Shown piece after piece: positions 1 through 9,687 of a DNA stretch of 9,687 nucleotides. Position 1 is the stretch's first letter, and each line of letters begins with the position of its first letter. The stretch comes from Candidatus Nanopusillus sp. (lineage in GTDB: Archaea; Nanobdellota; Nanobdellia; Nanobdellales; Nanobdellaceae): positions 1 through 9,687 of the forward strand of contig DAIUEN010000008.1 in NCBI GenBank assembly GCA_036845085.1, read 5' to 3'. A program made the position numbers and the translations under genes. The notes beneath the pieces were generated by a model that saw nothing but the letters and a program-made list of their open reading frames with translations, did not search any database and was not told the DNA's origin.

Positions 1-24
1 GAATGGTGGGGAGTTGATAAAATA

Positions 25-1920
25 ATGATAAGAAAATATACTAATCCAGAACCTTTATATACTTTAGGAATAGAACAAATAGGTTCTATATTCAATATAC
101 TAAATAAAAGACCAAATGAATCAATAAATTCAGTTAATGTAACATATGGTTTATTTAGTAAAAATAATACAAATGTTATAGTAAACTTTTATTTAAATAA
201 TACTCTAGTAGCTCAAAAAACTTATACTCTTTCGGCATTGCAAACTCTAATAGATTCTTTTGTTTATATTTTAGATCAGGAAGGAACATTCAACATAACT
301 CTTGTAGCAAATTTTATAGATGTTAATCGTACATCATCTGATAGTTTTAGAATTCTTATAGACCTTAAAGATCCTGTTTTATATTTTATAAACGGAATTC
401 CATATGTTTATGATGTATCACCTTCAGATTGTTATACTAAACCAGATAAAGTAATATGTATAGATGCATTCAACCATACTTCTGAGTATTCTTATAATTA
501 TATATTATCGAATATTAGCATACAAAATTCGGATTTATTTTTATATTTATTTGCAACAAATAATCCTAGAAATATCTCTATAAACTTTACTAATGTTTCA
601 TTAATAGAATCTAATTTTAGTAATGTAAGGGTTGTATGTACTAATTGTACTTTTGGTAGAACTAATCAAATAATATATATTAATAATTCGGCATTAATTT
701 ATATCATCAGAGACAAAAATTTATTATTTAATAGCTTAACTTTGAGTAATACTTCAAATTATACAGTTGGTAAAACAGATTTAATTTTGATCAGAGATTA
801 TTATCCTATACTAAATGTATATGGAGATAATGATCGAATAATATCATGGCTATTTATTTCATATATAAATAGGAATAATTTTCAAGAAATATTAAATAAT
901 GGTAATTTTAGAATATATACAGATGTAGAATTTTCAGTAAGAGATTATTTCAGTTTATCTACTCTACAATTTCATAGACTACCTCTCGGAACAACAACAA
1001 CAATAACAATAAACCTTAGTGGTTATCCAATAATTACTAGAACATTTCCTTTTGCATTCTCGAATTTTATATTAGCAAATGAAACACCAAAACTACAAAT
1101 ATTATTACCTAGATTGGAAACTGCAAGAATCCTAAGAATATATGTAAAACCAGCAGGATATTATGTTTATCTCTATAAAAGAGCTGGAAATAATTGGGAA
1201 TTAGTAAGTTTTGCAAAATCTCAACCAACACTCGCAGGAGAACTCCTATTTATAATACCAGAAACAGATTATCTAAGATTTGAATTTTATGATCAAAATG
1301 CAAATCTCGTTTATTGGCATGAAGATATTATTTCTGGAAATGATTATGAGTTCAACTTAGAAGAAAAATCTACTGTTTCATATTCAGTAACAAGGAAAGA
1401 AATGATACCATTATATATATTAGGTAATCCTTATGAATTTAATGCTACAAATATGACCTTTATATTTAATAAAAATGTAACATCTGTGGAATTATGGTAT
1501 TTACAAGGAAATAAATGGTATAGAAAATCATTAGGAATTTCAAATACACCAGTAGTATTTATTAATACTTCGAAAGAGATAAATCTAGAAAATGTATACA
1601 GAGTAGTATATGTATTTAAATTTGAAGATAACAGAACAATTTGGTTAGAATATAGAATTGTACCACCATATTTAGGTTTTGAAGAAATCAAAAATTTAGT
1701 ATCTAGCGATACTGTTATAAAACTAATATTTATATTATCTGCATTATTATTCTTAGCAATAGTCTATGTCTCAACTCTAAGTGAATACTTCCATATTGGT
1801 ACTACTATAATCACAATAATATTTTTAATGTTACTTGGAGCAGTAACACTAGATTTCGGCATTGTTTTAATAATATTAACAATATTAACATATAGTGGAC
1901 TAAGTAAATATAGTATATAA
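25..1920 (+). CDS. Large sequon-rich, C-terminally membrane-anchored surface or spike-like protein (631 aa from the first ATG; may be 5' truncated by the window edge)
   Basis: Long uninterrupted ORF. By manual count about 23 N-x-S/T sequons, all N-terminal of the hydrophobic C-terminus (VIKLIFILSALLFLAIVYV and IITIIFLMLLGAVTLDFGIVLIILTILTY). The central segment NISINFTNVSLIESNFSNVRVVCTNCTF...IIYINNSALIYII looks like parallel beta-helix repeats. No N-terminal signal peptide follows the ATG at 25, and frame 1 is open from nt 1 (EWWGVDKI-M), so the true start may lie upstream of the window. Confidence 0.8.
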   Translation: MIRKYTNPEPLYTLGIEQIGSIFNILNKRPNESINSVNVTYGLFSKNNTNVIVNFYLNNTLVAQKTYTLSALQTLIDSFVYILDQEGTFNITLVANFIDVNRTSSDSFRILIDLKDPVLYFINGIPYVYDVSPSDCYTKPDKVICIDAFNHTSEYSYNYILSNISIQNSDLFLYLFATNNPRNISINFTNVSLIESNFSNVRVVCTNCTFGRTNQIIYINNSALIYIIRDKNLLFNSLTLSNTSNYTVGKTDLILIRDYYPILNVYGDNDRIISWLFISYINRNNFQEILNNGNFRIYTDVEFSVRDYFSLSTLQFHRLPLGTTTTITINLSGYPIITRTFPFAFSNFILANETPKLQILLPRLETARILRIYVKPAGYYVYLYKRAGNNWELVSFAKSQPTLAGELLFIIPETDYLRFEFYDQNANLVYWHEDIISGNDYEFNLEEKSTVSYSVTRKEMIPLYILGNPYEFNATNMTFIFNKNVTSVELWYLQGNKWYRKSLGISNTPVVFINTSKEINLENVYRVVYVFKFEDNRTIWLEYRIVPPYLGFEEIKNLVSSDTVIKLIFILSALLFLAIVYVSTLSEYFHIGTTIITIIFLMLLGAVTLDFGIVLIILTILTYSGLSKYSI

Positions 1921-1961
1921 TAATACGAAAAGAATATTAATCTAAAAAATAATAAAAAATT

Positions 1962-2432
1962 ATGGGTCTTTCAGAAACTACAGGCTGGGATGCTTTAGTA
2001 TTTCTTATGGTATTTGGTTTTTTACTTCAGCTTATAGGTCTAGTCGAAGGTCCTTTTAATATACAATCTTTATTTAAATTAGAATCTGTAACAATTAGCA
2101 TTGGATCTGTTGATATTATAACTGTACCCTACGCAATTGCAGTAGTTCTAGGTGAAGTTGCAAAAACAACAGCAACTTTATTAACTGTTTATCTAGGTGG
2201 AACTACAGTAATTGGATTATTAACTGGTAGAAGTATGACTACTGGATTTGACTTTCCAGTAATATATAGAATCGTAATGTGGGGAGTACTTATTGCAATA
2301 TTTGCACCAGTCTTTTCAATGTTAGAAGCTTTAGCAACTTTACCATATATTGGAACTTTCTTAATGATAATAATATTATTCTTATACTTATTGGCTATGT
2401 ATAGTATCGTATATGCTCATGCTACAAGATGA
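1962..2432 (+). CDS. Integral membrane protein, about 4 TM helices, unknown function
   Basis: 156-aa ORF with four long hydrophobic stretches (ALVFLMVFGFLLQLIGLV, PYAIAVVLGEV..LLTVYLGG, IVMWGVLIAIFAPVFSML, IGTFLMIIILFLYLLAMYSIVY). Its TGA stop overlaps the next ATG (ATGA at 2429-2432). Confidence 0.8.
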   Translation: MGLSETTGWDALVFLMVFGFLLQLIGLVEGPFNIQSLFKLESVTISIGSVDIITVPYAIAVVLGEVAKTTATLLTVYLGGTTVIGLLTGRSMTTGFDFPVIYRIVMWGVLIAIFAPVFSMLEALATLPYIGTFLMIIILFLYLLAMYSIVYAHATR

Positions 2433-2677
2433 TACAATTGGATCCAGATTTTGTTTTGATTCTTGTTATATCTTTTTTAGTTATTTCAAATTTATTTGTA
2501 TTTAAATATGGTCCTGTACGAACTAAAATAATATATATGATTGTATCTATATTATTATTAGGTAAATTTTTAGCAAGTTTTGATAAAACTTGGAGTACTT
2601 TATTAATGTTGGTAGGAGCAGTATTCATTACATATTATGTTGCTGATAAGTTTCAAAATCTGTTGCGAAAGTTTTAA
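2429..2677 (+). CDS. Small integral membrane protein, about 3 TM helices
   Basis: 82-aa ORF with hydrophobic segments FVLILVISFLVISNLFVF, IIYMIVSILLLGKFLA and LLMLVGAVFITYYV. ATGA coupling to the upstream gene. Confidence 0.75.
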   Translation: MIQLDPDFVLILVISFLVISNLFVFKYGPVRTKIIYMIVSILLLGKFLASFDKTWSTLLMLVGAVFITYYVADKFQNLLRKF

Positions 2678-2702
2678 AAGTTTTGTGATAATAATAATTA
2701 AT

Positions 2703-3533
2703 ATGAATCCGGAAAACAGAAAACCTATCTCATTGATATATAGTCTATTTGAAGATAAAACTTATTTAGAGATACTTAAAGAAACTATAGAGAAAAGTAT
2801 ACAGATACATGAAGAACTTTTAAATTGGATTTCTGTACAACTAGCTAACGTTGAAGAAAAAATAAAATATGTTGTATTGGATATGTATACAATATATAAA
2901 TCTGAAATCAAAAGAGATCCTTTAACTAGTGATCAAAAACAAGAATTATTATTATTGACTAATGAACAACTAAAAGAAAAGTTAAAAGATTTTTATGTTA
3001 CTGAAAAAGATTTAAACAAATTATCTGGAGAATATAGAATAAGATTCTTAGAATTAGAAAATGAATTAATCAGATTATTAAATGAATATAGAGAATTAGC
3101 ATATGCAAGAGAGAAATTAACTGAAGAATTAAGATATAGAGAATCTTTAAAAGAAATCTATAAAAAAGTTCTAGATTTATTACAATTATATCCTAAACAT
3201 ATTAGATTAGGAAATCTAGATCAATTAGAACTTACAGCAATGAGATATTTCACAGATGCATATCTCTCATTACTGGCAAATGGATTATTATATGGGGATG
3301 TAGAGATTATGGAAGTTGCTAACCTTATAGTATTGCCATATATTTTGAATCTACAAGAAACTTCTCTATCTAGAGATGGTTTCTTCCTAAAATTAGTACA
3401 TAATGCACCTTTAATTACTGAATTAGGACCAAGAAAAGATGAATTAAAACAACAATCTGCCTCAGAAATCTTTCCTTTATTTTCAAAAGATAAAGAATAT
3501 TCAGGCCTAATAAATTGGTTTATTAAAAAATGA
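2703..3533 (+). CDS. Coiled-coil-rich hypothetical protein (276 aa)
   Basis: The track ORF starts at 2637, but its first 22 codons overlap the previous gene by 41 nt and read as low-complexity sequence. The ATG at 2703 (MNPENRK...) lies after the upstream stop. The central part has strong heptad-like E/K/L composition (LKEKLKDFYVTEKDLNKLSGEYRIRFLELENELIRLLNEYRELAYAREKLTEELRYRESLKE). The 2637 start cannot be excluded. Confidence 0.75.
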   Translation: MNPENRKPISLIYSLFEDKTYLEILKETIEKSIQIHEELLNWISVQLANVEEKIKYVVLDMYTIYKSEIKRDPLTSDQKQELLLLTNEQLKEKLKDFYVTEKDLNKLSGEYRIRFLELENELIRLLNEYRELAYAREKLTEELRYRESLKEIYKKVLDLLQLYPKHIRLGNLDQLELTAMRYFTDAYLSLLANGLLYGDVEIMEVANLIVLPYILNLQETSLSRDGFFLKLVHNAPLITELGPRKDELKQQSASEIFPLFSKDKEYSGLINWFIKK

Positions 3534-4141
3534 TTCTAAAAATATTTGGTAATAAAAAAAATAATACTAAGGACCAACAAAATTTTGAAAACTATTATAT
3601 TTTATTAGAGATAGATAGTGGTGGTAATATTAATATGATAAAAGCAAAGCCTGAAGAATTACCTAAATCATTATTAGTTTCAGGTTACTCTCTATTAAGG
3701 ATTGATGATCAAGTATATAGATGTTATGTTGTTGTAAAAAATTATTTAACTCCAACTCTAGATATACCTCTAATAAGAGAATTAATTGCAAAAAATCCAT
3801 ATATACCACTAAATACAGTAAATATGCATTATTCAACTGTACATAGATTCAAAAAACAAATATATGAATTTGTAGAAGTTGCACAAGCCTCAAAGTGGAA
3901 TAGAATAATTATGGAAAAAGGTTTAATGTCAAAATCATTCCAATTATCTGATTTAGCAAAATATATCTTTATTGCTATAATAATTGCCGGACTTATTGGA
4001 ATTGCATATGTATTATTCTTTAAACCACAATCAAATACACCGGCACCATTAATGCCATTACCAACAAATACAACCAATATAACAAATATAACAAATAACC
4101 TTGAAGCTGGCCATAATACAACAGAACAAATTAACTTATGA
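3530..4141 (+). CDS. Single-pass, C-terminally anchored membrane protein with a short sequon-rich extracytoplasmic tail
   Basis: 203-aa ORF with ATGA overlaps at both ends (3530-3533 and 4138-4141). One TM helix (YIFIAIIIAGLIGIAYVLFF) is followed by PQSNTPAPLMPLPTNTTNITNITNNLEAGHNTTEQINL, which carries 4 N-x-T sequons. Confidence 0.8.
   Translation: MILKIFGNKKNNTKDQQNFENYYILLEIDSGGNINMIKAKPEELPKSLLVSGYSLLRIDDQVYRCYVVVKNYLTPTLDIPLIRELIAKNPYIPLNTVNMHYSTVHRFKKQIYEFVEVAQASKWNRIIMEKGLMSKSFQLSDLAKYIFIAIIIAGLIGIAYVLFFKPQSNTPAPLMPLPTNTTNITNITNNLEAGHNTTEQINL
4074..4100 (+). repeat. Imperfect 9-bp tandem repeat (CCAATATAA / CAAATATAA / CAAATAACC) inside the CDS
   Basis: Read directly from the sequence. 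It encodes the NITNITNN glycosylation-sequon run of the tail of the 3530-4141 product. Confidence 0.6.
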
Positions 4142-4620
4142 TGATGAATGAAAATACAAAAAAAGAAGAATTTGTTAGTCTAGATCTAAGAGTTTTACCA
4201 TATTGGAATCTAATAAGAATTGCAAAAATTATTGAAGATAGAGTTCTAAATATAGATAGTACTGAATATTTATTAAGATTAACACATGAAATTCCGAATC
4301 CAGATATAATAAAAAATGAGATTTTAAAAAGATTAAAAAACTTATATTCAATTTCACTTGCAATATTATCAATTTATGGTAGAGAAAAAGAAATATTAAA
4401 GGATTATAAAGAAATTATGAGTATACCTAATATTGATGAAATACTACCTAGAATCTCATATTATACAACTAAAATATTAACAGAATTATATCAATTAATG
4501 AAAGATTTAGGTTTATTACCAAAAGAAAGAGAAAGAGACGAATTAGAAGAGCTTGAAGATTTCTTAAGTACAAAATTATACGAAGAAGATGGAACTACTG
4601 GAGAAACAACTAATAGATAA
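4138..4620 (+). CDS. Helical hypothetical protein with acidic C-terminus
   Basis: 160-aa ORF whose start overlaps the upstream stop (ATGA). Composition is consistent with the neighbouring genes. The C-terminus is RERDELEELEDFLSTKLYEEDGTTGETTNR. No motif recognised. Confidence 0.7.
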   Translation: MMMNENTKKEEFVSLDLRVLPYWNLIRIAKIIEDRVLNIDSTEYLLRLTHEIPNPDIIKNEILKRLKNLYSISLAILSIYGREKEILKDYKEIMSIPNIDEILPRISYYTTKILTELYQLMKDLGLLPKERERDELEELEDFLSTKLYEEDGTTGETTNR

Positions 4621-5422
4621 ATTTTTTAATGTAGAGATTCCAAAAAAATCAGTCTTAGAATTTTTTAAATCAAAATATCCACATATTTTTTTTGCATATT
4701 TAATAAAAAGAACTTTTAGAGAAGATTGGAATCTAGAAATTGTCATTGATGGGAATAAAGGTGTAGGGAAATCTTATTTAGGATTTAAAATATTAGAAAC
4801 TTTTACTTATTTAGATTCAAAAGAAAAATATTCTCAAGACATCATCAAAAAATCTTTTATTGTTCCTTTACCTGTTACATCATTATCAGATAAAGAAGAA
4901 ATAAACTTAATAGTAGAACAAATCAAAGAAGCTTTAGAAGATGATAATATTAAATTGATTGTTTTTGATGAAGCAGGAGATTTATTATTTACTTATGATA
5001 GAATGACAAAAGAAGCGAAATTATTAGTAAAAATATTAAGGAAAGTTAGAAAATATAAAAAATCATTTATATTTATTCATCCGCATATTTTTGAATTAAA
5101 TCCTAATATAAAATATAGATCTTTTAGTTTATGGATACATGGCTTATATAGAGTTTATAATAAATATTCAAGGTTTGTAGTATTAAGAGGTATTGACTAT
5201 AAAAAAGAATTTGTTTATTCTTTGGATCATATAAAGCATGCTTTGGATGTTTATAACATACAAGGTTGGTTTAAAAATAAATATTATTTATTTTCTTTTA
5301 ATTTTAATTATAATCCTGATGATTATTCAAATTATAAAGAATTATTAAGGGAAAAACAACAAGAACTTATCTTATCTAAAGAAACAAAAATTTATGGAGT
5401 AACTATAAGAGAAATTTATTAA
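4589..5422 (+). CDS. P-loop NTPase (candidate virion-assembly, packaging or replication ATPase)
   Basis: Walker A is GNKGVGKS (aa 55-62, nt 4751-4774). Walker B is IKLIVFDEAG (D127/E128, nt 4967-4972). The only in-frame ATG before the P-loop is at 4589, overlapping the upstream gene by 32 nt. It is the last gene of the operon and is followed by T-tracts. Confidence 0.85.
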   Translation: MELLEKQLIDKFFNVEIPKKSVLEFFKSKYPHIFFAYLIKRTFREDWNLEIVIDGNKGVGKSYLGFKILETFTYLDSKEKYSQDIIKKSFIVPLPVTSLSDKEEINLIVEQIKEALEDDNIKLIVFDEAGDLLFTYDRMTKEAKLLVKILRKVRKYKKSFIFIHPHIFELNPNIKYRSFSLWIHGLYRVYNKYSRFVVLRGIDYKKEFVYSLDHIKHALDVYNIQGWFKNKYYLFSFNFNYNPDDYSNYKELLREKQQELILSKETKIYGVTIREIY

Positions 5423-5424
5423 AA

Positions 5425-5450
5425 TTTTTAGTACAACTCAATAATTTTTT
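5425..5450 (+). terminator. Oligo-T tracts downstream of the operon (archaeal-type terminator candidates)
   Basis: T5 at 5425-5429 and T6 at 5445-5450 lie just after the TAA at 5420-5422. Archaeal RNA polymerase terminates at oligo-T. The background is very AT-rich, so specificity is low. Confidence 0.35.
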
Positions 5451-5485
5451 AAATATTAGTGAGTATATTACTCCATTCTCGTGAT

Positions 5486-5495
5486 GCACATGTGC
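5486..5495. repeat. Perfect 10-bp palindrome GCACATGTGC inside a locally GC-rich island (about 5478-5510)
   Basis: Read directly. It is embedded in ctcgtgatGCACATGTGCtacctctgatcgg, which is far more GC-rich than its surroundings. Confidence 0.5.
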
Positions 5496-5555
5496 TACCT
5501 CTGATCGGTAAAAAATAGAAAAGATAATATTTTAAATTATAAATTATAGGGAACA

Positions 5556-5645
5556 CTTTGGGTACCTTTTGGGTACCCATGTCATCAAAAAAATTTTTTT
5601 TTTTGAAAATCGAGGGTAACGAATGGGTACCCAAAGAGTACCCAT
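5556..5645. promoter_or_regulatory. Inverted, helically phased GGGTACC-box array flanking an A7T11 tract (candidate origin of replication or operator)
   Basis: Two perfect 10-bp palindromes TGGGTACCCA sit at 5570-5579 and 5624-5633. Each has a degenerate copy 11 bp further out (TGGGTACCTT at 5559-5568 and AGAGTACCCA at 5635-5644). TTTGGGTACCCAT (5568-5580) is the exact reverse complement of ATGGGTACCCAAA (5623-5635). The spacer contains TCA7T11GA (5585-5606) and a degenerate GGGTAAC (5614-5620). Confidence 0.6.
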
Positions 5646-5734
5646 CCATTAGACTTAACCTAGATAAATTTTTTGTGTCTTTCTGTTGTTACTATTCAAT
5701 ACTAAAACGTTAGTTTTATAAAATATGATGTTCG

Positions 5735-5760
5735 TTGATTATCATTATTGATTATCAATA
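5735..5760. repeat. TTGATTATCA direct repeat (13-bp period) overlapping a 15-bp palindrome
   Basis: TTGATTATCA occurs at 5735-5744 and 5748-5757. TATTGAT-T-ATCAATA at 5746-5760 is a palindrome with perfect 7-bp arms. Confidence 0.5.
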
Positions 5761-5770
5761 TCAAAATTTG

Positions 5771-5814
5771 GAAACCTCACGCGTAGGTGGACGTCCACTC
5801 CTGTATGAGATTTC
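5771..5814. other. GC-rich imperfect inverted repeat or hairpin with a central perfect 12-bp palindrome (candidate structured RNA or protein-binding site)
   Basis: GAAACCTCA (5771-5779) pairs with TGAGATTTC (5806-5814) at 8 of 9 positions. The centre is GTGGACGTCCAC (5787-5798), a perfect palindrome. Local G+C is far above the window background. Confidence 0.45.
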
Positions 5815-6126
5815 AAAAATTGCATTTTTGTTACTTTTTAGTGACAAAATTATCAAAATTTATTCATAAATATATACGATAATTTTAACCATAATTTAGT
5901 GGTGTATGTGTGTCTCTACTGATATATCAAACAATAAAAATAAATAATATATATATTTTCTTTTTTAGAATTTTGTTATAATATAAATATTCCTATTAAT
6001 AATATTATTAATTAGTAATAAAACAAAACTATTACAAAGCTAACATATATTATCACAATATTTCAGATTATTTTTAAATAATAAAAAGACGTTAAATTTT
6101 TAAATTTTAAGGTATAATAATATAAT

Positions 6127-6768
6127 ATGGCACTTGAAAAGATATCAGATCCAAATCCTCAAGAAGCAGAAGGCAAAGATATAGATGAAATAAAGCTAAT
6201 AGAAACGGCCAAGTTTGATCCAAAAGAAGTAAGAGATCTAGTAAATACTTTAAATTCTCGGGGTATAGAACTTCAAAAATTATATCTTAGTTATATATTC
6301 GAAAAGGATCAAAATGAAAAAGAAAGATTAAAACAAGAATTCAACAAAATAAAAGAACAGAATGACAATCTAATAAAAGAACTCGAGCAAAAAAGTAAAG
6401 ATTTTATTAAAGATGCAGAAAATATTATAAAGCATCTCCAAGTATATGAAATATGGTTCAAGAAAGATAAATCTAATAATACCTATGCAATATTATATAG
6501 TAAAATATATAATGATATATTTAATAGGCTGGAAGATTTAGATAATGCATATAAAATATTAGAAAAAGAAAGTATAACAGATTATGCAAAAGAAAAATTT
6601 AGAGAAATTAGAATGAAACTAAAAGAGATTGTTGACGAATTATACAAAATAAAAGATGAAACTGAAAAAATGTATGACCTTGCTTATTTAATAAAAACTA
6701 CTTTAGGTATTAACAAAGCAGAAGGACATATTTTATCTAATCTTGCTAACAAAAGACGCCTTATATAA
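6127..6768 (+). CDS. Alpha-helical, coiled-coil-rich hypothetical protein (213 aa)
   Basis: Clean ORF after the long non-coding interval, with AT-rich TATA-like boxes upstream (tttttaaatttta). K/E/L-rich heptad-like segments (EKERLKQEFNKIKEQNDNLIKELEQKSKDF and KEKFREIRMKLKEIVDELYKIKDETEKMYD). Two T6 tracts follow the stop (6787-6792 and 6799-6804). Confidence 0.8.
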   Translation: MALEKISDPNPQEAEGKDIDEIKLIETAKFDPKEVRDLVNTLNSRGIELQKLYLSYIFEKDQNEKERLKQEFNKIKEQNDNLIKELEQKSKDFIKDAENIIKHLQVYEIWFKKDKSNNTYAILYSKIYNDIFNRLEDLDNAYKILEKESITDYAKEKFREIRMKLKEIVDELYKIKDETEKMYDLAYLIKTTLGINKAEGHILSNLANKRRLI

Positions 6769-6809: not shown

Positions 6810-7061
6810 ATGTTAAACAATTATCAAAAAGGACGTGCTAAAGAATATCGAATCAAACAAAAATTAAAAAAAGAAGGATATTATACTATTAGAAGTGCAG
6901 GATCACATTCATATTTTGATTTGATTGCAATAAACAAAGAAAAAAAAGAAATATTACTTATACAAGTAAAATCAAATAAAACCAAAAAAATAGAAGAATT
7001 TTATCAAAAATTAAATAATGAGTTTAGTGGACAATACACTGTTAAAGTTGTATTATTGTAA
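6810..7061 (+). CDS. hjc: Minimal archaeal Hjc-type Holliday-junction-resolvase-like PD-(D/E)xK nuclease (83 aa) with QxK in place of ExK
   Basis: YQKGRAKEYRIKQKLKKEGYYTIRSAGSHSYFDLIAINKEKKEILLIQVKS aligns by eye with my recollection of Pyrococcus Hjc ([48 protein letters not shown]). E12, the RSAGS motif, D37 and K54 are conserved. The position of catalytic Glu46 is Gln52 (CAA, 6963-6965). The protein stops about 40 aa short of the roughly 120-140 aa typical of Hjc. Confidence 0.7.
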   Translation: MLNNYQKGRAKEYRIKQKLKKEGYYTIRSAGSHSYFDLIAINKEKKEILLIQVKSNKTKKIEEFYQKLNNEFSGQYTVKVVLL

Positions 7062-7064
7062 CAA

Positions 7065-7412
7065 TTAGCTAGTGTAATTTTGTTTTTGTTTCTTTTTATT
7101 TTGTAGAGTCAACTTATATGTTACTATTACTAACTCATCTTTAAATTCAACATTTGTAACTTGCATGCTTTTGATTTCTATATTATTATCGTCATAATAT
7201 TTACTTTTTAGTTCTTTTTCTATATATTGTTTTAGATAATCTTTAACATGATTTTTCTCAAAATAATTTTTTACTATTTCCCGTATAATAAATCTTCTTT
7301 GTAATTGGTAATACCATCTCATTGTTTGTAAAATATCTTGAGCTTTGATACTAATATCACTAAATAAATTGCCATCTTGATCAAAATAAACACTAACGTA
7401 TACATAACTCAT
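7065..7412 (-). CDS. Hypothetical protein (115 aa from the internal ATG; the track ORF extends to 7544)
   Basis: This is the only convincing minus-strand gene. It converges on the hjc-like gene with a 3-bp gap. The track start at 7544 would overlap the divergent gene's ATG (7536) and adds 44 low-complexity codons across the intergenic AT-rich region. The ATG at 7412-7410 (MSYVYVSVYFDQDGN...) begins the part with protein-like composition. No motif recognised. Confidence 0.6.
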   Translation of the reverse strand: MSYVYVSVYFDQDGNLFSDISIKAQDILQTMRWYYQLQRRFIIREIVKNYFEKNHVKDYLKQYIEKELKSKYYDDNNIEIKSMQVTNVEFKDELVIVTYKLTLQNKKKQKQNYTS

Positions 7413-7535: not shown

Positions 7536-7790
7536 ATGGCTCAATTGGTTCAGATACCTACAAGCGAAATTTTGTCTAAGCTGAGAGATACAATAAAGAG
7601 CCTAGAAGTATTAGAGAACAGCAGTATGAATATAATTCTTGGCTTTGAGGTTAAAATAACCAAAGTATCACAATATAGGTATTTAGCGAATTTATCAAAA
7701 TTTGAAATAACTGAAAAAGATAAATTAGTTGGAATAAGGATAAAAGATTTATTGATATTCTTAATAAAGAAAAATGAGAGATCCAATTGA
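7536..7790 (+). CDS. Small hypothetical protein (84 aa), first gene of a three-gene overlapping cassette
   Basis: ORF with composition like its neighbours. It overlaps the next gene by 17 nt. The N-terminus QLVQIPTSEILSKLRD is faintly AbrB/SpoVT-like, but I cannot support that call. Confidence 0.65.
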   Translation: MAQLVQIPTSEILSKLRDTIKSLEVLENSSMNIILGFEVKITKVSQYRYLANLSKFEITEKDKLVGIRIKDLLIFLIKKNERSN

Positions 7791-8343
7791 ACAAATAAAA
7801 TTTTATCTAGATCAAGTAAAAGCAGATATACTAGAGCAAATAAAACAAACTAAAAAAGAGATAATAGAATATATTGACAAAAATCTAAATAAAATATCAG
7901 AAACTAAACCAAAAAGAAATTTCAACATCGAAAACTATATTAAAATAACAGATTATTTATTACAATTACACAAAGAAAAACCAACCAAAGCATATTTATA
8001 TAATCAACTAATAAAAGATATAAACAATAAACTAAATATAGAACAAGATGAAATCAAAAATATACTTAATTTATTAATTAAAAAAAGAATATTATTTAAA
8101 ATAGATTCTCCAAATAATGAGGAATTATATATAATATCTAAAAAAATACTGAGATATCAAAATAAAAAATCAAATACTAATCAAGATAATAAAAAACAAG
8201 AAACACAAAGTACTCAAGATCAACAACAAGATCAAAACAAAAATGAAAGTACAGTGAAACCAGCTGAAGTTCTTGATTTATCAGTATCTAAAAAATATGT
8301 TTCTAGACAAGCAGTTGATCAGTATTCTAGAGAAATCTATTAA
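7774..8343 (+). CDS. Hypothetical protein with a possible winged-helix DNA-binding core and a Q/N/K-rich low-complexity region
   Basis: 189-aa ORF. The segment ITDYLLQLHKEKPTKAYLYNQLIKDINNKLNIEQDEIKNILNLLIKKRILFKIDSPNNEELYIIS has a helix-helix-helix-hairpin pattern typical of wHTH domains (inference only). The low-complexity stretch is NKKSNTNQDNKKQETQSTQDQQQDQNKNES. Confidence 0.7.
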   Translation: MRDPIEQIKFYLDQVKADILEQIKQTKKEIIEYIDKNLNKISETKPKRNFNIENYIKITDYLLQLHKEKPTKAYLYNQLIKDINNKLNIEQDEIKNILNLLIKKRILFKIDSPNNEELYIISKKILRYQNKKSNTNQDNKKQETQSTQDQQQDQNKNESTVKPAEVLDLSVSKKYVSRQAVDQYSREIY

Positions 8344-9687
8344 AAGAAGAGAAGATATAGCTGCATTCTATGAATTAGCAAGTTTAGTATCTAATAACAA
8401 AAGCATAGATTTAAAAGAACTAGAAAGATTATTTCAAATTTATATAAAAAGTAAGAATGATACACTATTAAAATTGGAGTTATCAAAATATGGAAAAACT
8501 ACATTTTTTGGAAGGATACAAGCATGGAAAGTAGATATTTCTAGAAAACTAATAATTGTAAGATTGTCAGATAAATTAAGGGCAATAATTCCATTAGATT
8601 TATTTGAATCTTTAGATCCCTACGAAATAATACGAGAATTAGATAACCTAATAGAAATGCAAATAGTACGAAATGGTGGAAATAATCTTGTGATATCACT
8701 AACTACGTATAATATAAATGAAGACAAAAATTCTGCACAAAAAATATTAGAACAAGAACATCCAATTAAAGTTTTAGTAGAAGCATTAGGATTTTACTTT
8801 AATTATAATACATTTAGGGCAAACCTACCGAGAATAATTGCATTATTTAAGGTTCCTGTTGATGTCTATGCATCTTCAGCAATTCATCTACTACAATTTA
8901 CATTACCTGGAACAGGAAAATCAACAACAATGTACAAATTATGGAATATTTTAAATTTAGAGATCATAGGAGGTGGTCTACCATCTCCTGCTAAACTTAT
9001 TTATAATGCACAAACTCATGAAAAAGGATTAGTATATACAAGAGATTATATTATATTAGATGAATTTGATAAAAGTATCAAAAAAGAAAACTATGAATTT
9101 TTTAGTATGATACAATCAGGTATGGCTAATGGAATATGGACAAGAGAAAAATCTACAAAACTTCCATTAGGTAAACTTAAAAAAGATACTACTTTAATAT
9201 TCTTCGGAAATATAGAAGGAAATCTACTTAGAAATACAGAAAACTTTAGAGATTATATTGAAAGATATATACACGGTGTTCTAGAATCGGAAAATATAGC
9301 AAAAGCTTTTACAGATAGAATTTCAATAATCGATTTATATACTGGCAAACCATTAGTAGAATATACACATGATAAAATACCAATAGCTGCCATATTACGA
9401 GGTATCTTTAGAATTTTAGAAGAAAAAGCATATCAAATTGAAGCTCCAAACTTTGATCTAATTGGAAGACAGAGAATTCATGCAAAACAAATATACAAAG
9501 TTATAAGAGCATTAGGAATAGAAGAACCTCTAGCATATGAATTTACTCAAAATTTAGTTACTGGTGATGCTAACATAGAAAATACGTATAAAGAAGTATA
9601 TAAACAGATTACAGGAAAAGATCCTGATTCAGAATCTAATAAAAAATCAGATACATCGGAACTTGTCAAAAAAATAGAGATAAAAGA
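8297..9687 (+). CDS. AAA+ ATPase of the MCM / BrxL(Lon-like) / MoxR clade with an N-terminal domain of about 200 aa; 3' partial (runs off the window); candidate replicative helicase or initiator
   Basis: Not in the supplied track. I translated frame 2 by hand. There is a stop at 8255-8257, the first ATG is at 8297, and no stop follows through 9687 (463 codons). Walker A is LPGTGKST (nt 8906-8926). Walker B is YIILDEFDK (nt 9050-9073), matching the MCM-style DEFDK. The next segment FFSMIQSGMANGIWTREKS resembles the helix-2-insert region. The sensor-1-like motif is TTLIFFGN (N305, nt 9209-9211). The Arg-finger-like motif is AFTDRISIIDL (R341, nt 9317-9319; compare MCM LLSRFDLIF and MoxR LLDRF). 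Confidence 0.85.
   Translation, partial: MFLDKQLISILEKSIKRREDIAAFYELASLVSNNKSIDLKELERLFQIYIKSKNDTLLKLELSKYGKTTFFGRIQAWKVDISRKLIIVRLSDKLRAIIPLDLFESLDPYEIIRELDNLIEMQIVRNGGNNLVISLTTYNINEDKNSAQKILEQEHPIKVLVEALGFYFNYNTFRANLPRIIALFKVPVDVYASSAIHLLQFTLPGTGKSTTMYKLWNILNLEIIGGGLPSPAKLIYNAQTHEKGLVYTRDYIILDEFDKSIKKENYEFFSMIQSGMANGIWTREKSTKLPLGKLKKDTTLIFFGNIEGNLLRNTENFRDYIERYIHGVLESENIAKAFTDRISIIDLYTGKPLVEYTHDKIPIAAILRGIFRILEEKAYQIEAPNFDLIGRQRIHAKQIYKVIRALGIEEPLAYEFTQNLVTGDANIENTYKEVYKQITGKDPDSESNKKSDTSELVKKIEIK

What the first reader, a model, noticed from the sequence alone, without database searches (positions are those of the whole stretch)
25..5422. Seven-gene coupled operon: anchored glycoprotein, membrane proteins and a terminal P-loop NTPase (envelope or morphogenesis-like module)
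The order is a large C-terminally anchored sequon-rich protein, a 4-TM protein, a 3-TM protein, a coiled-coil protein, a tail-anchored protein with a glycosylated ectodomain stub, a helical acidic protein and a Walker A/B NTPase. Most junctions are coupled (ATGA at 2429, 3530 and 4138; a 32-nt overlap at 4589). Membrane-containing archaeal viruses show a similar arrangement. As I recall it, the conserved pleolipovirus block has a spike protein with a C-terminal anchor, a small polytopic internal membrane protein, unknown ORFs and a putative NTPase. I see no sequence-level similarity by eye, so any relationship would be remote, and this may be a new virion architecture.
Basis: partly seen in the sequence, partly recalled or inferred. 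Interest (0 to 1): 0.7.

Follow-up and report, generated by a model that had tools for sequence, protein, structure and literature searches.

The report
Hot-spring archaeal virus assembly gene cassette
This is a conserved block of seven genes from an uncultivated, very AT-rich hot-spring archaeal virus that most likely builds and exports the virus particle. Its only recognisable part is an ATPase of the kind carried by lemon-shaped fuselloviruses, so it looks like a new lineage of a known kind of module, not a pleolipovirus relative.

Summary
The seven co-directional, tightly coupled genes are real. They recur in the same order, at 25-52% protein identity, in at least four other hot-spring metagenome lineages, and they are the only genes those contigs share with the window.

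Two corrections apply. ORF1 is cut by the window edge: it is the C-terminal ~58% of a ~1,100-aa secreted protein, and a full-length homolog carries a signal peptide and a DUF2341 domain. The coiled-coil gene starts at 2703, not 2637.

The terminal NTPase is a member of the fusellovirus B251 ("DnaA-like") ATPase family (hhalign 96.5%, E 8e-10; PHROG 5484, best E 3e-11). Its predicted fold is closest to the ATV and APSV1 homologs, then to inovirus Zot/pI assembly ATPases and RecA-like proteins. It does not match pleolipovirus VP8 (1.4%) or DnaA/Cdc6.

The other six proteins match nothing known. The 276-aa family has only 9 representatives among 1.84 billion proteins.

The layout of adhesin, five small genes, then a TM-less ATPase repeats the morphogenetic module described for wyrdviruses and, loosely, for fuselloviruses.

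Best reading: the virion-assembly and egress module of a new family-level archaeal virus group. No spindle-type capsid protein was found, so virion shape is open. The host is also unknown.

The parts
1..1920 (+). C-terminal 639 codons of a ~1,100-aa secreted, membrane-anchored, sequon-rich protein (putative receptor-binding adhesin or terminal-fibre protein). It is truncated by the window's 5' edge.
   Evidence: The frame is open to base 1. P0005 (1095 aa) aligns over all 639 codons at 46% identity, with window Met-1 at P0005 residue 461. P0005 has an N-terminal signal-peptide-like sequence (MKLRWIILLGLLFIANSVYS) and DUF2341 (E 2e-23). The window part has 23 sequons against 9.8 expected and 2-3 C-terminal hydrophobic helices at 557-631. 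The DUF2341 region weakly matches minor or putative structural proteins of rudiviruses and Los Azufres archaeal virus 1.
1962..2432 (+). 156-aa polytopic membrane protein with about 4 hydrophobic segments. It is a candidate virion membrane, matrix or capsid component.
   Evidence: Hydropathy. Orthologs at 30-32% identity in the same position in four lineages. No match to SSV VP1/VP3, His1 VP21 or HRPV-1 VP3.
2429..2677 (+). 82-aa membrane protein with 2-3 hydrophobic segments and a conserved LKYGxxxTK loop. Its start overlaps the upstream stop (ATGA).
   Evidence: In a spindle-virus capsid-protein HMM search it was the top hit, but not significantly (E 0.13).
2703..3533 (+). 276-aa soluble helical protein, with two predicted ~55-residue helices and conserved motifs LFEDKxY, LYPKHLRxG and ETSLSxxGFFL. 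Function unknown.
   Evidence: The start is set by homologs. There are only 9 representatives in 1.84 billion proteins. Alignment A3. AF2 pLDDT 61. No fold or profile match.
3530..4141 (+). 203-aa protein with a ~135-aa N-terminal domain, one TM, and a short C-terminal stub carrying sequons.
   Evidence: TM at 137-168 and 4 sequons in the stub. The TM is conserved in all lineages, and sequons in the stub in 3 of 4. ATGA coupling at both ends.
4138..4620 (+). 160-aa acidic soluble protein that overlaps the ATPase gene by 32 nt. It is the positional counterpart of fusellovirus A153.
   Evidence: No profile similarity to A153 or APSV1 orf11, but those two also fail to match each other in the control.
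4589..5422 (+). 277-aa P-loop ATPase of the fusellovirus B251 ('DnaA-like') family, with no TM domain. Putative genome-packaging or virion-assembly motor.
   Evidence: PHROG 5484 E 9.8e-7 for the window protein, 4 of 4 family members matched, best 3.2e-11. hhalign against the B251 alignment gives 96.5%, E 7.6e-10, 144 columns including Walker A and B. The reciprocal B251 HMM hits only these orthologs among 301 ORFs. AF2 pLDDT 72.6, pTM 0.80. Foldseek top hits are ATV ORF286 and a 290-aa protein I take to be the APSV1 homolog, then inovirus Zot.

Best explanation
The seven genes are the conserved virion-morphogenesis and egress cassette of an uncultivated, extremely AT-rich (24.6% GC) archaeal virus from hot springs. 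The group is new at about family level.

Proposed working (inferred, not shown):
1. The ~1,100-aa signal-peptide-bearing, N-glycosylated product of gene 1 is exported and held in the membrane by its C-terminal helices. It ends up on the particle as the host-recognition adhesin.
2. The two small polytopic proteins (156 and 82 aa) and the single-TM 203-aa protein insert into the host membrane. There they form the particle's hydrophobic shell or matrix, or the assembly site.
3. The soluble 276-aa helical protein and the 160-aa acidic protein act on the cytoplasmic side as scaffold or DNA adaptor.
4. The B251-type ATPase, which has no TM segment and must be recruited by these partners, uses ATP to load or extrude the viral DNA into the nascent particle at the membrane. 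This is the role proposed for fusellovirus B251 and wyrdvirus ATPases, by analogy with protein I of filamentous phages.

Shown: gene reality, conserved order and coupling, topology features, ATPase family membership and fold neighbours, and cassette behaviour.

Inferred: virion association of each protein, the ATPase's substrate, and particle shape.
For: 1. Cassette behaviour. The same seven genes occur in the same order in the window/L001/L002, L003-L005, L006 and L007-L009/L018, at 23-52% identity. They are the only genes shared, and everything downstream differs: Hjc plus a BrxL-like ATPase here, against SNF2 helicase, UvrD-like helicase and PCNA there.

2. ATPase family. Evidence comes (E 4.7e-8, sole hit among 80 SSV1 ORFs). 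In the 'phages' collection this family is found in Fuselloviridae, Bicaudaviridae, Guttaviridae, APSV1, STSV2 and the Sulfolobus super-elliptical virus.

3. Fold. Best matches are ATV ORF286 (E 7.5e-9, TM 0.51) and a 290-aa protein (G3CAX5) that I take to be APSV1 orf12 from its length. Next come Inoviridae Zot proteins (5.5e-6) and a Nitrosopumilus spindle-shaped virus protein. PDB hits are RecA/RadA, FlaH, KaiC and the Zot N-domain 2r2a. At sequence level, pI of M13 (PHROG 1675) reaches 3.2e-4 and Pfam Zot 0.0029, each in 2 of 4 members.

4. Layout. Wyrdviruses are described as having an adhesin, then 'a block of five genes', then an AAA+ ATPase that lacks a TM domain like B251 (preprint 10.1101/2021.07.29.453957). 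SSV1 runs from end-filament protein C-792 through small membrane and capsid genes to B-277, A-153 and B-251, with A-153 and B-251 overlapping by 32 nt. APSV1 has orf10-319, orf11-134 and orf12-290.

5. Packaging role. B251 and A154 are also carried by the satellite pSSVx, which is packaged into SSV2 particles (PMC9608457; 10.1101/2025.02.15.638363).

6. Surface protein features of gene 1.

7. No cellular counterpart. Nothing was found in GTDB species genomes or IMG/VR, nor in Pfam, NCBIfam or PDB.
Against: - Six of the seven proteins have no detectable homolog in any characterised virus, so their structural role rests on position and physico-chemistry only.
- No homolog of the spindle-virus hairpin capsid protein was detected in the window or related contigs. 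F2 and F3 against VP1, VP3 and VP21 give 1.2% or less, while the VP1-against-VP21 control gives 39.7%.
- No capsid, portal or other hallmark protein is present.
- No complete genome, terminal repeats or virion data are available.
- The function of the B251 family has never been shown biochemically and has historically been read as replication initiation.
- A large palindrome lies just downstream of the ATPase gene, and one lineage's ATPase carries a winged-helix extension. Both features would also suit an initiator.
Confidence: 0.6

Rival explanations
1. Mixed operon. The terminal ATPase is a replication initiator (the classical 'DnaA-like' reading). It would act on the 100-bp palindrome directly downstream as origin, while the upstream genes are structural or membrane proteins.
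For: - The B251 family is annotated as a DnaA-like replication initiator, and a review says B251 and A154 are 'implicated in replication and packaging'.
- The 704-bp non-coding region after the gene holds six GGGTACCC-like 8-mers in 11-bp phase. They form two arms around an A7T11 tract (0 of 200 shuffles reach 4 matches). The region folds with z = -6.9. This layout resembles an origin.
- The Great Boiling Spring lineage's ATPase has a C-terminal winged-helix (PCI) domain, E 1.1e-6.
Against: - Fold neighbours are RecA-like and Zot-like, not DnaA, Orc or Cdc6. None of those appears in the top 50 PDB hits.
- No Bac_DnaA Pfam hit appears, even at E of 10 or less.
- The gene travels with the membrane-protein block while the replication genes next to it are exchanged between lineages.
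- The palindrome is not conserved in L003 or L006, where a different palindrome sits further away, upstream of the SNF2 helicase.
- A DNA-binding domain would equally suit a packaging motor.
Confidence: 0.15
2. A non-viral mobile element. This could be a plasmid, a vesicle-forming plasmid or a virus satellite that carries a surface adhesin and a B251-type ATPase in order to be exported in vesicles or in a helper virus's particles.
For: - B251-type ATPases occur on satellites and plasmids such as pSSVx, SRCEs and PL6-family plasmids.
- No recognisable capsid protein is present.
- Contigs are incomplete and lack termini.
- There are no hits in IMG/VR.
Against: - Known satellites carry only the ATPase, with or without a capsid protein or A153, not a 5.4-kb seven-gene block with a 1,100-aa secreted glycoprotein.
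- The related contigs are 13-19 kb or more and carry helicases, PCNA and a resolvase, which is typical of autonomous archaeal viruses.
Confidence: 0.12
3. A remote pleolipovirus-like pleomorphic virus, with spike, internal membrane protein, unknown ORFs and a VP8-like NTPase.
For: The two share only component types: an anchored glycoprotein, a ~4-TM small protein, and two or three unknown ORFs before an ATPase (HRPV-1 map; module description).
Against: - hhalign gives 1.4% for ATPase against VP8, 0.1% for ORF1 against VP4, 0.1% for ORF2 and ORF3 against VP3, and 2% or less for ORF4-6 against ORF6 and ORF7.
- The fusellovirus B251 alignment likewise does not match VP8 (1.1%), but it does match His1 ORF16 (95.5%), so F7 sits on the B251 side (96.5%).
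- Gene order differs. In HRPV-1 the membrane protein precedes the spike.
Confidence: 0.07
4. A cellular envelope, pilus, secretion or S-layer biogenesis operon.
For: The only support is the generic composition of membrane proteins plus an NTPase. DUF2341 also occurs in cellular proteins.
Against: - There is no match to any cellular family in Pfam or NCBIfam.
- The block is absent from one genome per 185,579 species, tested with two different baits.
- The neighbouring genes are of mobile-element type, and the flanks vary.
Confidence: 0.03

Closest known systems
Fuselloviridae late block (SSV1 C-792/VP4 ... A-82, C-84, B-277, A-153, B-251)
   Same: - The ATPase is homologous (96.5% hhalign probability; PHROG 5484).
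- A large terminal adhesin gene lies upstream, followed by small membrane proteins.
- Just before the ATPase come a ~276-aa protein and a ~150-aa acidic protein (sizes 276/160/277 here against 277/153/251).
- The ATPase gene overlaps the preceding gene (32 nt in both).
- The ATPase has no TM domain.
   Different: - No detectable similarity exists for any of the other six proteins.
- No VP1/VP3-type capsid gene lies within the block.
- There is an extra single-TM 203-aa gene.
- No integrase follows the ATPase.
- GC is 24.6%, and the flanks encode Hjc and BrxL-like or SNF2, UvrD and PCNA genes not typical of fuselloviruses.
Wyrdviridae (Asgard spindle-shaped viruses) morphogenetic module
   Same: The literature describes the same arrangement: a receptor-binding adhesin, a conserved block of five uncharacterised genes, then an AAA+ ATPase that lacks a TM domain and resembles pI of filamentous phages.
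   Different: - Homology could not be tested because no wyrdvirus sequences were available, and the tblastn of the ATPase against the phage collection found nothing.
- Wyrdviruses have recognisable His1-like capsid proteins, and none was recognised here.
- They come from a different habitat, deep-sea sediment.
B251-like ATPases of ATV (ORF286), APSV1 (orf12-290) and His1 (ORF16)
   Same: - These are the best structural matches (E 7.5e-9 to 2e-7, TM about 0.5). Assigning the 290-aa hit G3CAX5 to APSV1 rests on its length only.
- hhalign against APSV1 orf12 gives 69.8%.
- APSV1 also has 319-aa and 134-aa genes directly upstream.
   Different: - Sequence identity is only 15-20%.
- hhalign against His1 ORF16 gives only 9.4%.
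- The C-terminal ~100 residues are specific to the lineage.
Protein I / Zot assembly ATPases of filamentous phages (Tubulavirales)
   Same: - The P-loop domain is similar at fold level (Foldseek 5.5e-6; PDB 2r2a 1.3e-4).
- It is weakly similar at sequence level (PHROG 1675 3.2e-4; Pfam Zot 0.0029).
- The proposed role is the same: ATP-driven loading of DNA into membrane-embedded coat proteins.
   Different: - There is no C-terminal TM or periplasmic domain.
- TM-scores are only about 0.35.
- No secretin partner is present, and the host is archaeal.
Pleolipoviridae core (VP3, VP4, ORF6, ORF7, VP8)
   Same: The two share component types only: an anchored glycoprotein, a small polytopic membrane protein, unknown ORFs and a terminal ATPase.
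   Different: No homology was detected for any component. The ATPase belongs to a different family. Gene order differs.

Membership tests
Fusellovirus B251 / 'DnaA-like' ATPase family (PHROG 5484), tested for gene 7 | Significant profile similarity across the N-terminal helices and the P-loop core, reciprocal and specific | tested here: met
   PHROG 5484 is matched by 4 of 4 members, best E 3.2e-11. hhalign gives 96.5%, E 7.6e-10, over 144 columns. The B251 HMM hits only the gene-7 orthologs (7e-12 to 2.5e-5), and the next ORF scores 0.1.
Fusellovirus B251 / 'DnaA-like' ATPase family (PHROG 5484), tested for gene 7 | Walker A and B motifs present and no transmembrane segment | tested here: met
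   GNKGVGKS and LIVFDEAGD are invariant. No hydrophobic segment is present.
Fusellovirus B251 / 'DnaA-like' ATPase family (PHROG 5484), tested for gene 7 | Predicted fold closest to family members | tested here: met
   In BFVD, ATV ORF286 ranks first and the 290-aa G3CAX5 (APSV1 homolog by length) ranks third. The model has pLDDT 72.6 and pTM 0.80.
Fuselloviridae (virus family) | VP1/VP3-type two-helix hydrophobic major capsid protein | tested here: not met
   ORF2, ORF3 and the membrane ORF upstream in L018 score 1.2% or less against VP1, VP3 and His1 VP21. The VP1-against-VP21 control scores 39.7%. The HMM's best hit has E 0.13. The gene could lie outside the sequenced stretches.
Fuselloviridae (virus family) | Homologs of core genes VP4/C792, C166, A82, A92, B277 and A153 | tested here: not met
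   All hhalign probabilities are below 6%. Power is low: APSV1 orf10 and orf11 also fail against B277 and A153.
Fuselloviridae (virus family) | SSV-type integrase next to B251 | tested here: not met
   After gene 7 the window has 704 bp of non-coding DNA. Relatives have an unrelated 155-aa gene on the opposite strand. The only trace is a weak Phage_integrase hit (E 0.004) far downstream in L003.
Spindle-shaped virus morphogenetic module in the broad sense (hairpin capsid protein + AAA+ ATPase; adhesin ... ATPase layout) | ATPase of the B251/His1 type at the end of an operon that begins with a large adhesin | tested here: met
   describe the known layouts. describe this one.
Spindle-shaped virus morphogenetic module in the broad sense (hairpin capsid protein + AAA+ ATPase; adhesin ... 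ATPase layout) | Spindle-shaped particle | not testable with these tools
   This needs electron microscopy of particles carrying this genome.
Pleolipoviridae | VP8-like ATPase | tested here: not met
   hhalign gives 1.4%.
Pleolipoviridae | VP4-like spike or fusion protein, VP3-like membrane protein, and ORF6/ORF7 homologs | tested here: not met
   Probabilities are 0.1%, 0.1% and 2% or less. The targets were single sequences, so sensitivity is limited.
Zot / protein I assembly ATPases | Zot-type P-loop domain | tested here: inconclusive
   Pfam Zot scores 0.0029 in 2 of 4 members, below the curated cut-off. PHROG 1675 scores 3.2e-4. Foldseek gives 5.5e-6 with TM 0.35, and 2r2a gives 1.3e-4.
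Zot / protein I assembly ATPases | C-terminal transmembrane and periplasmic domain | tested here: not met
   No TM segment is present.
DnaA / Orc1-Cdc6 AAA+ initiators | AAA+ core with helical lid plus a DNA-binding domain, and similarity to DnaA or Cdc6 models | tested here: not met
   There is no Bac_DnaA or Cdc6 hit in Pfam at E of 10 or less. None appears among the top 50 PDB fold hits. After Walker B the model shows beta strands, not a helical lid. A winged-helix extension is present only in P0002.

The most novel reading that the evidence does not exclude
The block encodes a previously unseen kind of archaeal virion. Its shell would be built from the 156-aa four-segment and 82-aa membrane proteins, which are unrelated to the hairpin capsid proteins of spindle viruses and to the matrix proteins of pleolipoviruses. 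It would be assembled by a B251-type motor. The virus would belong to a new family infecting very low-GC hyperthermophiles, possibly Nanoarchaeota or other DPANN, for which almost no viruses are known.
Probability: 0.3. Interest if true: 0.7.

Novelty: new variant of a known kind. Interest (0 to 1): 0.5.

Why it matters
- **Reach of the ATPase family.** B251-type ATPases are so far known from Sulfolobales, Aeropyrum and haloarchaeal viruses. This finding extends them, and the 'adhesin, small membrane proteins, ATPase' assembly cassette, to a separate hot-spring lineage with 24-31% GC.
- **Function of B251.** The block supplies independent comparative evidence on a long-unresolved question. The ATPase stays with the membrane-protein block while replication genes are swapped. 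Its fold neighbours are Zot, pI and RecA rather than DnaA. Both points favour a morphogenesis or packaging role over replication initiation.
- **New targets.** The six orphan families are concrete candidates for structural and proteomic work on how membrane-derived archaeal virions are built. One of them has only nine representatives among 1.84 billion proteins.

Tried and rejected
- DNA and protein searches of the phage collection with the whole window and the ATPase found nothing.
- IMG/VR and GTDB genome scans, using ATPase and 276-aa-protein patterns, found nothing (searches failed for lack of conserved stretches). The metagenome scan returned only the window's own lineage.
- I hypothesised that genes 4 and 6 are B277 and A153 orthologs and that genes 2 and 3 are VP1, VP3 or A82 equivalents. 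Profile-profile tests were all negative, so I keep this only as a positional analogy.
- I hypothesised that the L003 SNF2 helicase and 451-aa pair equals SSV7 A583 and B471. phmmer found no similarity, so I rejected it.
- I tested for an internal duplication in ORF2 and for paralogy between ORF2 and ORF3. Neither was found.
- The structure route for the 276-aa protein failed. The model had pLDDT 61 and the fold search was meaningless.
- PDB sequence searches with the ATPase, the adhesin and the 276-aa family found nothing.
- tRNA and Rfam scans found nothing credible. The only Rfam hit was a below-threshold match on the palindrome.
- The bacterial promoter and terminator scan was uninformative in this AT-rich archaeal DNA.
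- I tried to reach the 19,461-bp NCBI contig that carries the identical ATPase, but its gene is not on record. A search for a paper describing it also found nothing.
- The NAV1 (nanoarchaeal virus) paper is not held.

Full report
**Observation**

The window (24.6% GC) carries seven co-directional ORFs between 25 and 5422. Start/stop overlaps of the ATGA type occur at 2429, 3530 and 4138, and a 32-nt overlap occurs at 4589. A simple hydropathy and sequon analysis gave these results:
- ORF1 has 23 N-x-S/T sequons against 9.8 expected from composition. All lie before a C-terminal hydrophobic block (557-631) that holds two or three helices.
- ORF2 (156 aa) has four hydrophobic segments.
- ORF3 (82 aa) has two or three.
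- ORF5 has a single TM (137-168) followed by a short stub with four sequons.
- ORF6 is acidic.
- ORF7 has invariant Walker A and B motifs.

Two points need correction.
1. The ORF1 frame is open to base 1, and a full-length homolog exists. P0005 is 1095 aa, shows 46% identity over all 639 codons, and aligns window Met-1 to its residue 461. The codons before that Met also align. P0005 starts with a signal-peptide-like sequence and has a DUF2341 domain (E 2e-23). The window therefore holds only the C-terminal ~58% of a ~1,100-aa secreted protein.
2. The fourth gene starts at 2703 (276 aa), as in all its homologs.

**Are these real genes, and is the block a unit?**

The ATPase has only three non-identical cluster representatives among 5.8 billion clusters. 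Their contigs all carry the same seven genes in the same order. These contigs come from Great Boiling Spring 85 °C samples, from 'ANDE17' ENA assemblies and from other JGI metagenomes. Identities to the window range from 23% (ORF5) to 52% (ORF7).

An all-against-all comparison shows that these seven are the only genes the window shares with the 13-16 kb relatives.
- Downstream, the window has a 704-bp non-coding stretch, a coiled-coil protein, an Hjc resolvase and a BrxL-like ATPase.
- The relatives instead have an opposite-strand 155-aa gene, an SNF2 helicase, a UvrD-like helicase and PCNA.

The block is therefore a conserved cassette next to exchangeable replication and repair genes. This is the usual behaviour of a viral morphogenetic module.

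**The ATPase**

Pfam gives only sub-threshold generic AAA hits. The best PHROG is 5484, 'DnaA-like replication initiation protein', at 9.8e-7. All four family members match it, best 3.2e-11. That PHROG corresponds to fusellovirus B251, as several tests show:
- A profile of the four orthologs hits only B-251 among 80 SSV1 ORFs (4.7e-8).
- hhalign against a five-virus B251 alignment gives 96.5% and E 7.6e-10. The match covers 144 columns, spanning the N-terminal helices, Walker A, Walker B and the following strand.
- The reciprocal B251 profile picks out only the ORF7 orthologs among 301 six-frame ORFs. It ignores the SNF2, UvrD-like and BrxL-like P-loop proteins.

In the phage collection the B251 family occurs in Fuselloviridae, ATV, APOV1, APSV1, STSV2 and the Sulfolobus super-elliptical virus.

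The AlphaFold model (pLDDT 72.6, pTM 0.80) is closest to the following:
- ATV ORF286 and a 290-aa protein (G3CAX5) that I take to be APSV1 orf12 from its length.
- Inovirus Zot proteins and a Nitrosopumilus spindle-virus protein.
- In the PDB: RecA/RadA, FlaH, KaiC and the Zot N-domain. No DnaA or Cdc6 appears in the top 50.

Weak sequence links to M13 protein I (3.2e-4) and Pfam Zot (0.0029) appear in two of the four members. Against pleolipovirus VP8 the probability is 1.4%.

**The other six proteins**

None matches Pfam, PHROGs, NCBIfam or PDB. Profile-profile comparisons all gave probabilities below 6%. The targets were:
- Fusellovirus A82, C84, A92, B277, A153, VP1, VP3, C792, B78 and C166.
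- APSV1 orf8-11.
- HRPV-1 VP3, VP4, ORF6 and ORF7.
- His1 VP21 and its neighbours.

The controls matter for reading these negatives. APSV1 orf10 and orf11 also fail against B277 and A153, so the negatives for ORF4 and ORF6 are uninformative. SSV VP1 against His1 VP21 gives 39.7%, so the negative for a spindle-type capsid protein carries some weight.

An exhaustive HMM search with the 276-aa family found nine representatives among 1.84 billion proteins. They share the motifs LFEDKxY, LYPKHLRxG and ETSLSxxGFFL. The AlphaFold model for this protein is poor (pLDDT 61), and its fold search was meaningless.

The N-terminal DUF2341 region of the full-length adhesin weakly matches proteins of rudiviruses and a 'putative structural protein' of Los Azufres archaeal virus 1. 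The rudiviral matches are SBRV1 ORF38-582, which lies next to the 1064-aa ORF36, and SIRV4.

**Comparison with known modules**

- SSV1 encodes, in order: end-filament protein C-792, B-78, C-166, the capsid genes, A-82, C-84, B-277, A-153 and B-251. A-153 and B-251 overlap by 32 nt.
- APSV1 has orf10-319, orf11-134 and orf12-290.
- For wyrdviruses, the literature describes an adhesin, a conserved block of five unknown genes, and an AAA+ ATPase that, like B251, lacks a TM domain and resembles protein I of filamentous phages.
- The signature of spindle viruses is stated to be a hydrophobic hairpin capsid protein plus this ATPase. Satellites such as pSSVx carry the ATPase in order to be packaged.

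The present block reproduces this layout: an adhesin, five small genes (three of them membrane proteins), then a TM-less B251-type ATPase. It does not have the recognisable capsid protein.

**Interpretation**

I read the block as the morphogenesis and egress cassette of a new, roughly family-level group of hot-spring archaeal viruses (confidence 0.6). The ATPase would act as the DNA-loading or extrusion motor at the membrane.

The main rival is that the ATPase is an initiator acting on the adjacent palindrome (0.15). That rival is weakened in three ways:
- The fold neighbours are not initiator-like.
- The ATPase is linked to the membrane-protein block rather than to the exchangeable replication genes.
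- The palindrome is not conserved in the other lineages.

A plasmid or satellite (0.12), a pleolipovirus relative (0.07) and a cellular system (0.03) are less likely. The block is absent from 185,579 species genomes and from IMG/VR.

Particle shape and host remain unknown. The very low GC and hot-spring origin suggest DPANN/Nanoarchaeota or low-GC Thermoproteota, but that is only a guess from composition.

**Novelty and score**

The kind of module is known. The ATPase is a new, deep member of a known family. The rest is orphan sequence. I rate this a new variant of a known kind, interest 0.5. It would rise to about 0.7 if the small membrane proteins prove to build a new type of virion.

Noticed in passing
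window 5545-5648 (within the non-coding stretch 5423-6126): A ~100-nt imperfect palindrome. It holds six GGGTACCC-like 8-mers (5549, 5560, 5571 | 5614, 5625, 5636) in 11-bp phase, as two arms around an A7T11 tract. GGGTACCC with one mismatch or fewer occurs 4 times here and nowhere else (0 of 200 shuffles). The region folds at -45 kcal/mol, z = -6.9. It could be an origin, an operator or a bidirectional terminator next to the ATPase gene.
   Followed up: partly
window 5486-5495 and 5787-5798: Two more GC-rich perfect palindromes (GCACATGTGC and GTGGACGTCCAC) lie in the same AT-rich intergenic region. The second sits in a modest hairpin (z -1.8 to -2.5). No tRNA or Rfam family matches.
   Followed up: partly
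window 8297-9687 (open at the 3' edge): An ORF of at least 463 aa with a BrxL-like (Lon-related, BREX) ATPase domain (Pfam E 3.8e-14; TIGR02688 2.4e-12). It has Walker A LPGTGKST and Walker B IILDEFDK. It may be the element's replicative or DNA-handling ATPase.
   Followed up: partly
window 6810-7061: An 83-aa archaeal Holliday-junction resolvase (Hjc) homolog (Pfam E 3.9e-7; PHROG 6591). It confirms an archaeal mobile-element context.
   Followed up: partly
window 6127-6768, 7065-7412 (-), 7536-7790, 7774-8343: Four further ORFs (213-aa coiled-coil, 115 aa on the minus strand, 84 aa, 189 aa) have no family match and no homolog in the related contigs.
   Followed up: partly
L003 5429-5476 and L006 5979-6034: A different conserved palindrome (…GTAACAAAAGTTTAAAAACCGGTTTATAAAT…) lies upstream of the SNF2 helicase gene in both related lineages. 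It may be the functional counterpart of the window's palindrome.
   Followed up: no
P0002 (L007 3665-4693): In the Great Boiling Spring lineage the ATPase is 342 aa. Its C-terminal extension matches the PCI winged-helix domain (E 1.1e-6) and weakly matches HTH_24. This suggests a DNA-binding add-on.
   Followed up: partly
L018 1-255: A strongly hydrophobic ORF of at least 84 aa, with about 3 hydrophobic segments, lies directly upstream of the full-length adhesin gene. The corresponding region lies outside the window. It shows no similarity to spindle-virus capsid proteins or to ORF2 and ORF3.
   Followed up: partly
window as a whole; L001, L002: The window's ATPase and 276-aa protein are identical to NCBI-derived proteins (P0015, P0018) recorded on a 19,461-bp contig, so about 10 kb more of this genome exists publicly. 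Two JGI contigs (99.4-99.5% identical) end at exactly the window's 3' end, which points to a common assembly break there.
   Followed up: partly
L003 5571-11181 and 13973-14725; L006 6129-11739: The related contigs (about 30% GC against 24.6% here) carry an SNF2-family helicase, two unknown genes (about 451 and 363 aa) and a UvrD-like helicase. L003 also carries PCNA and a 189-aa protein with a weak integrase hit. None of these is shared with the window.
   Followed up: partly
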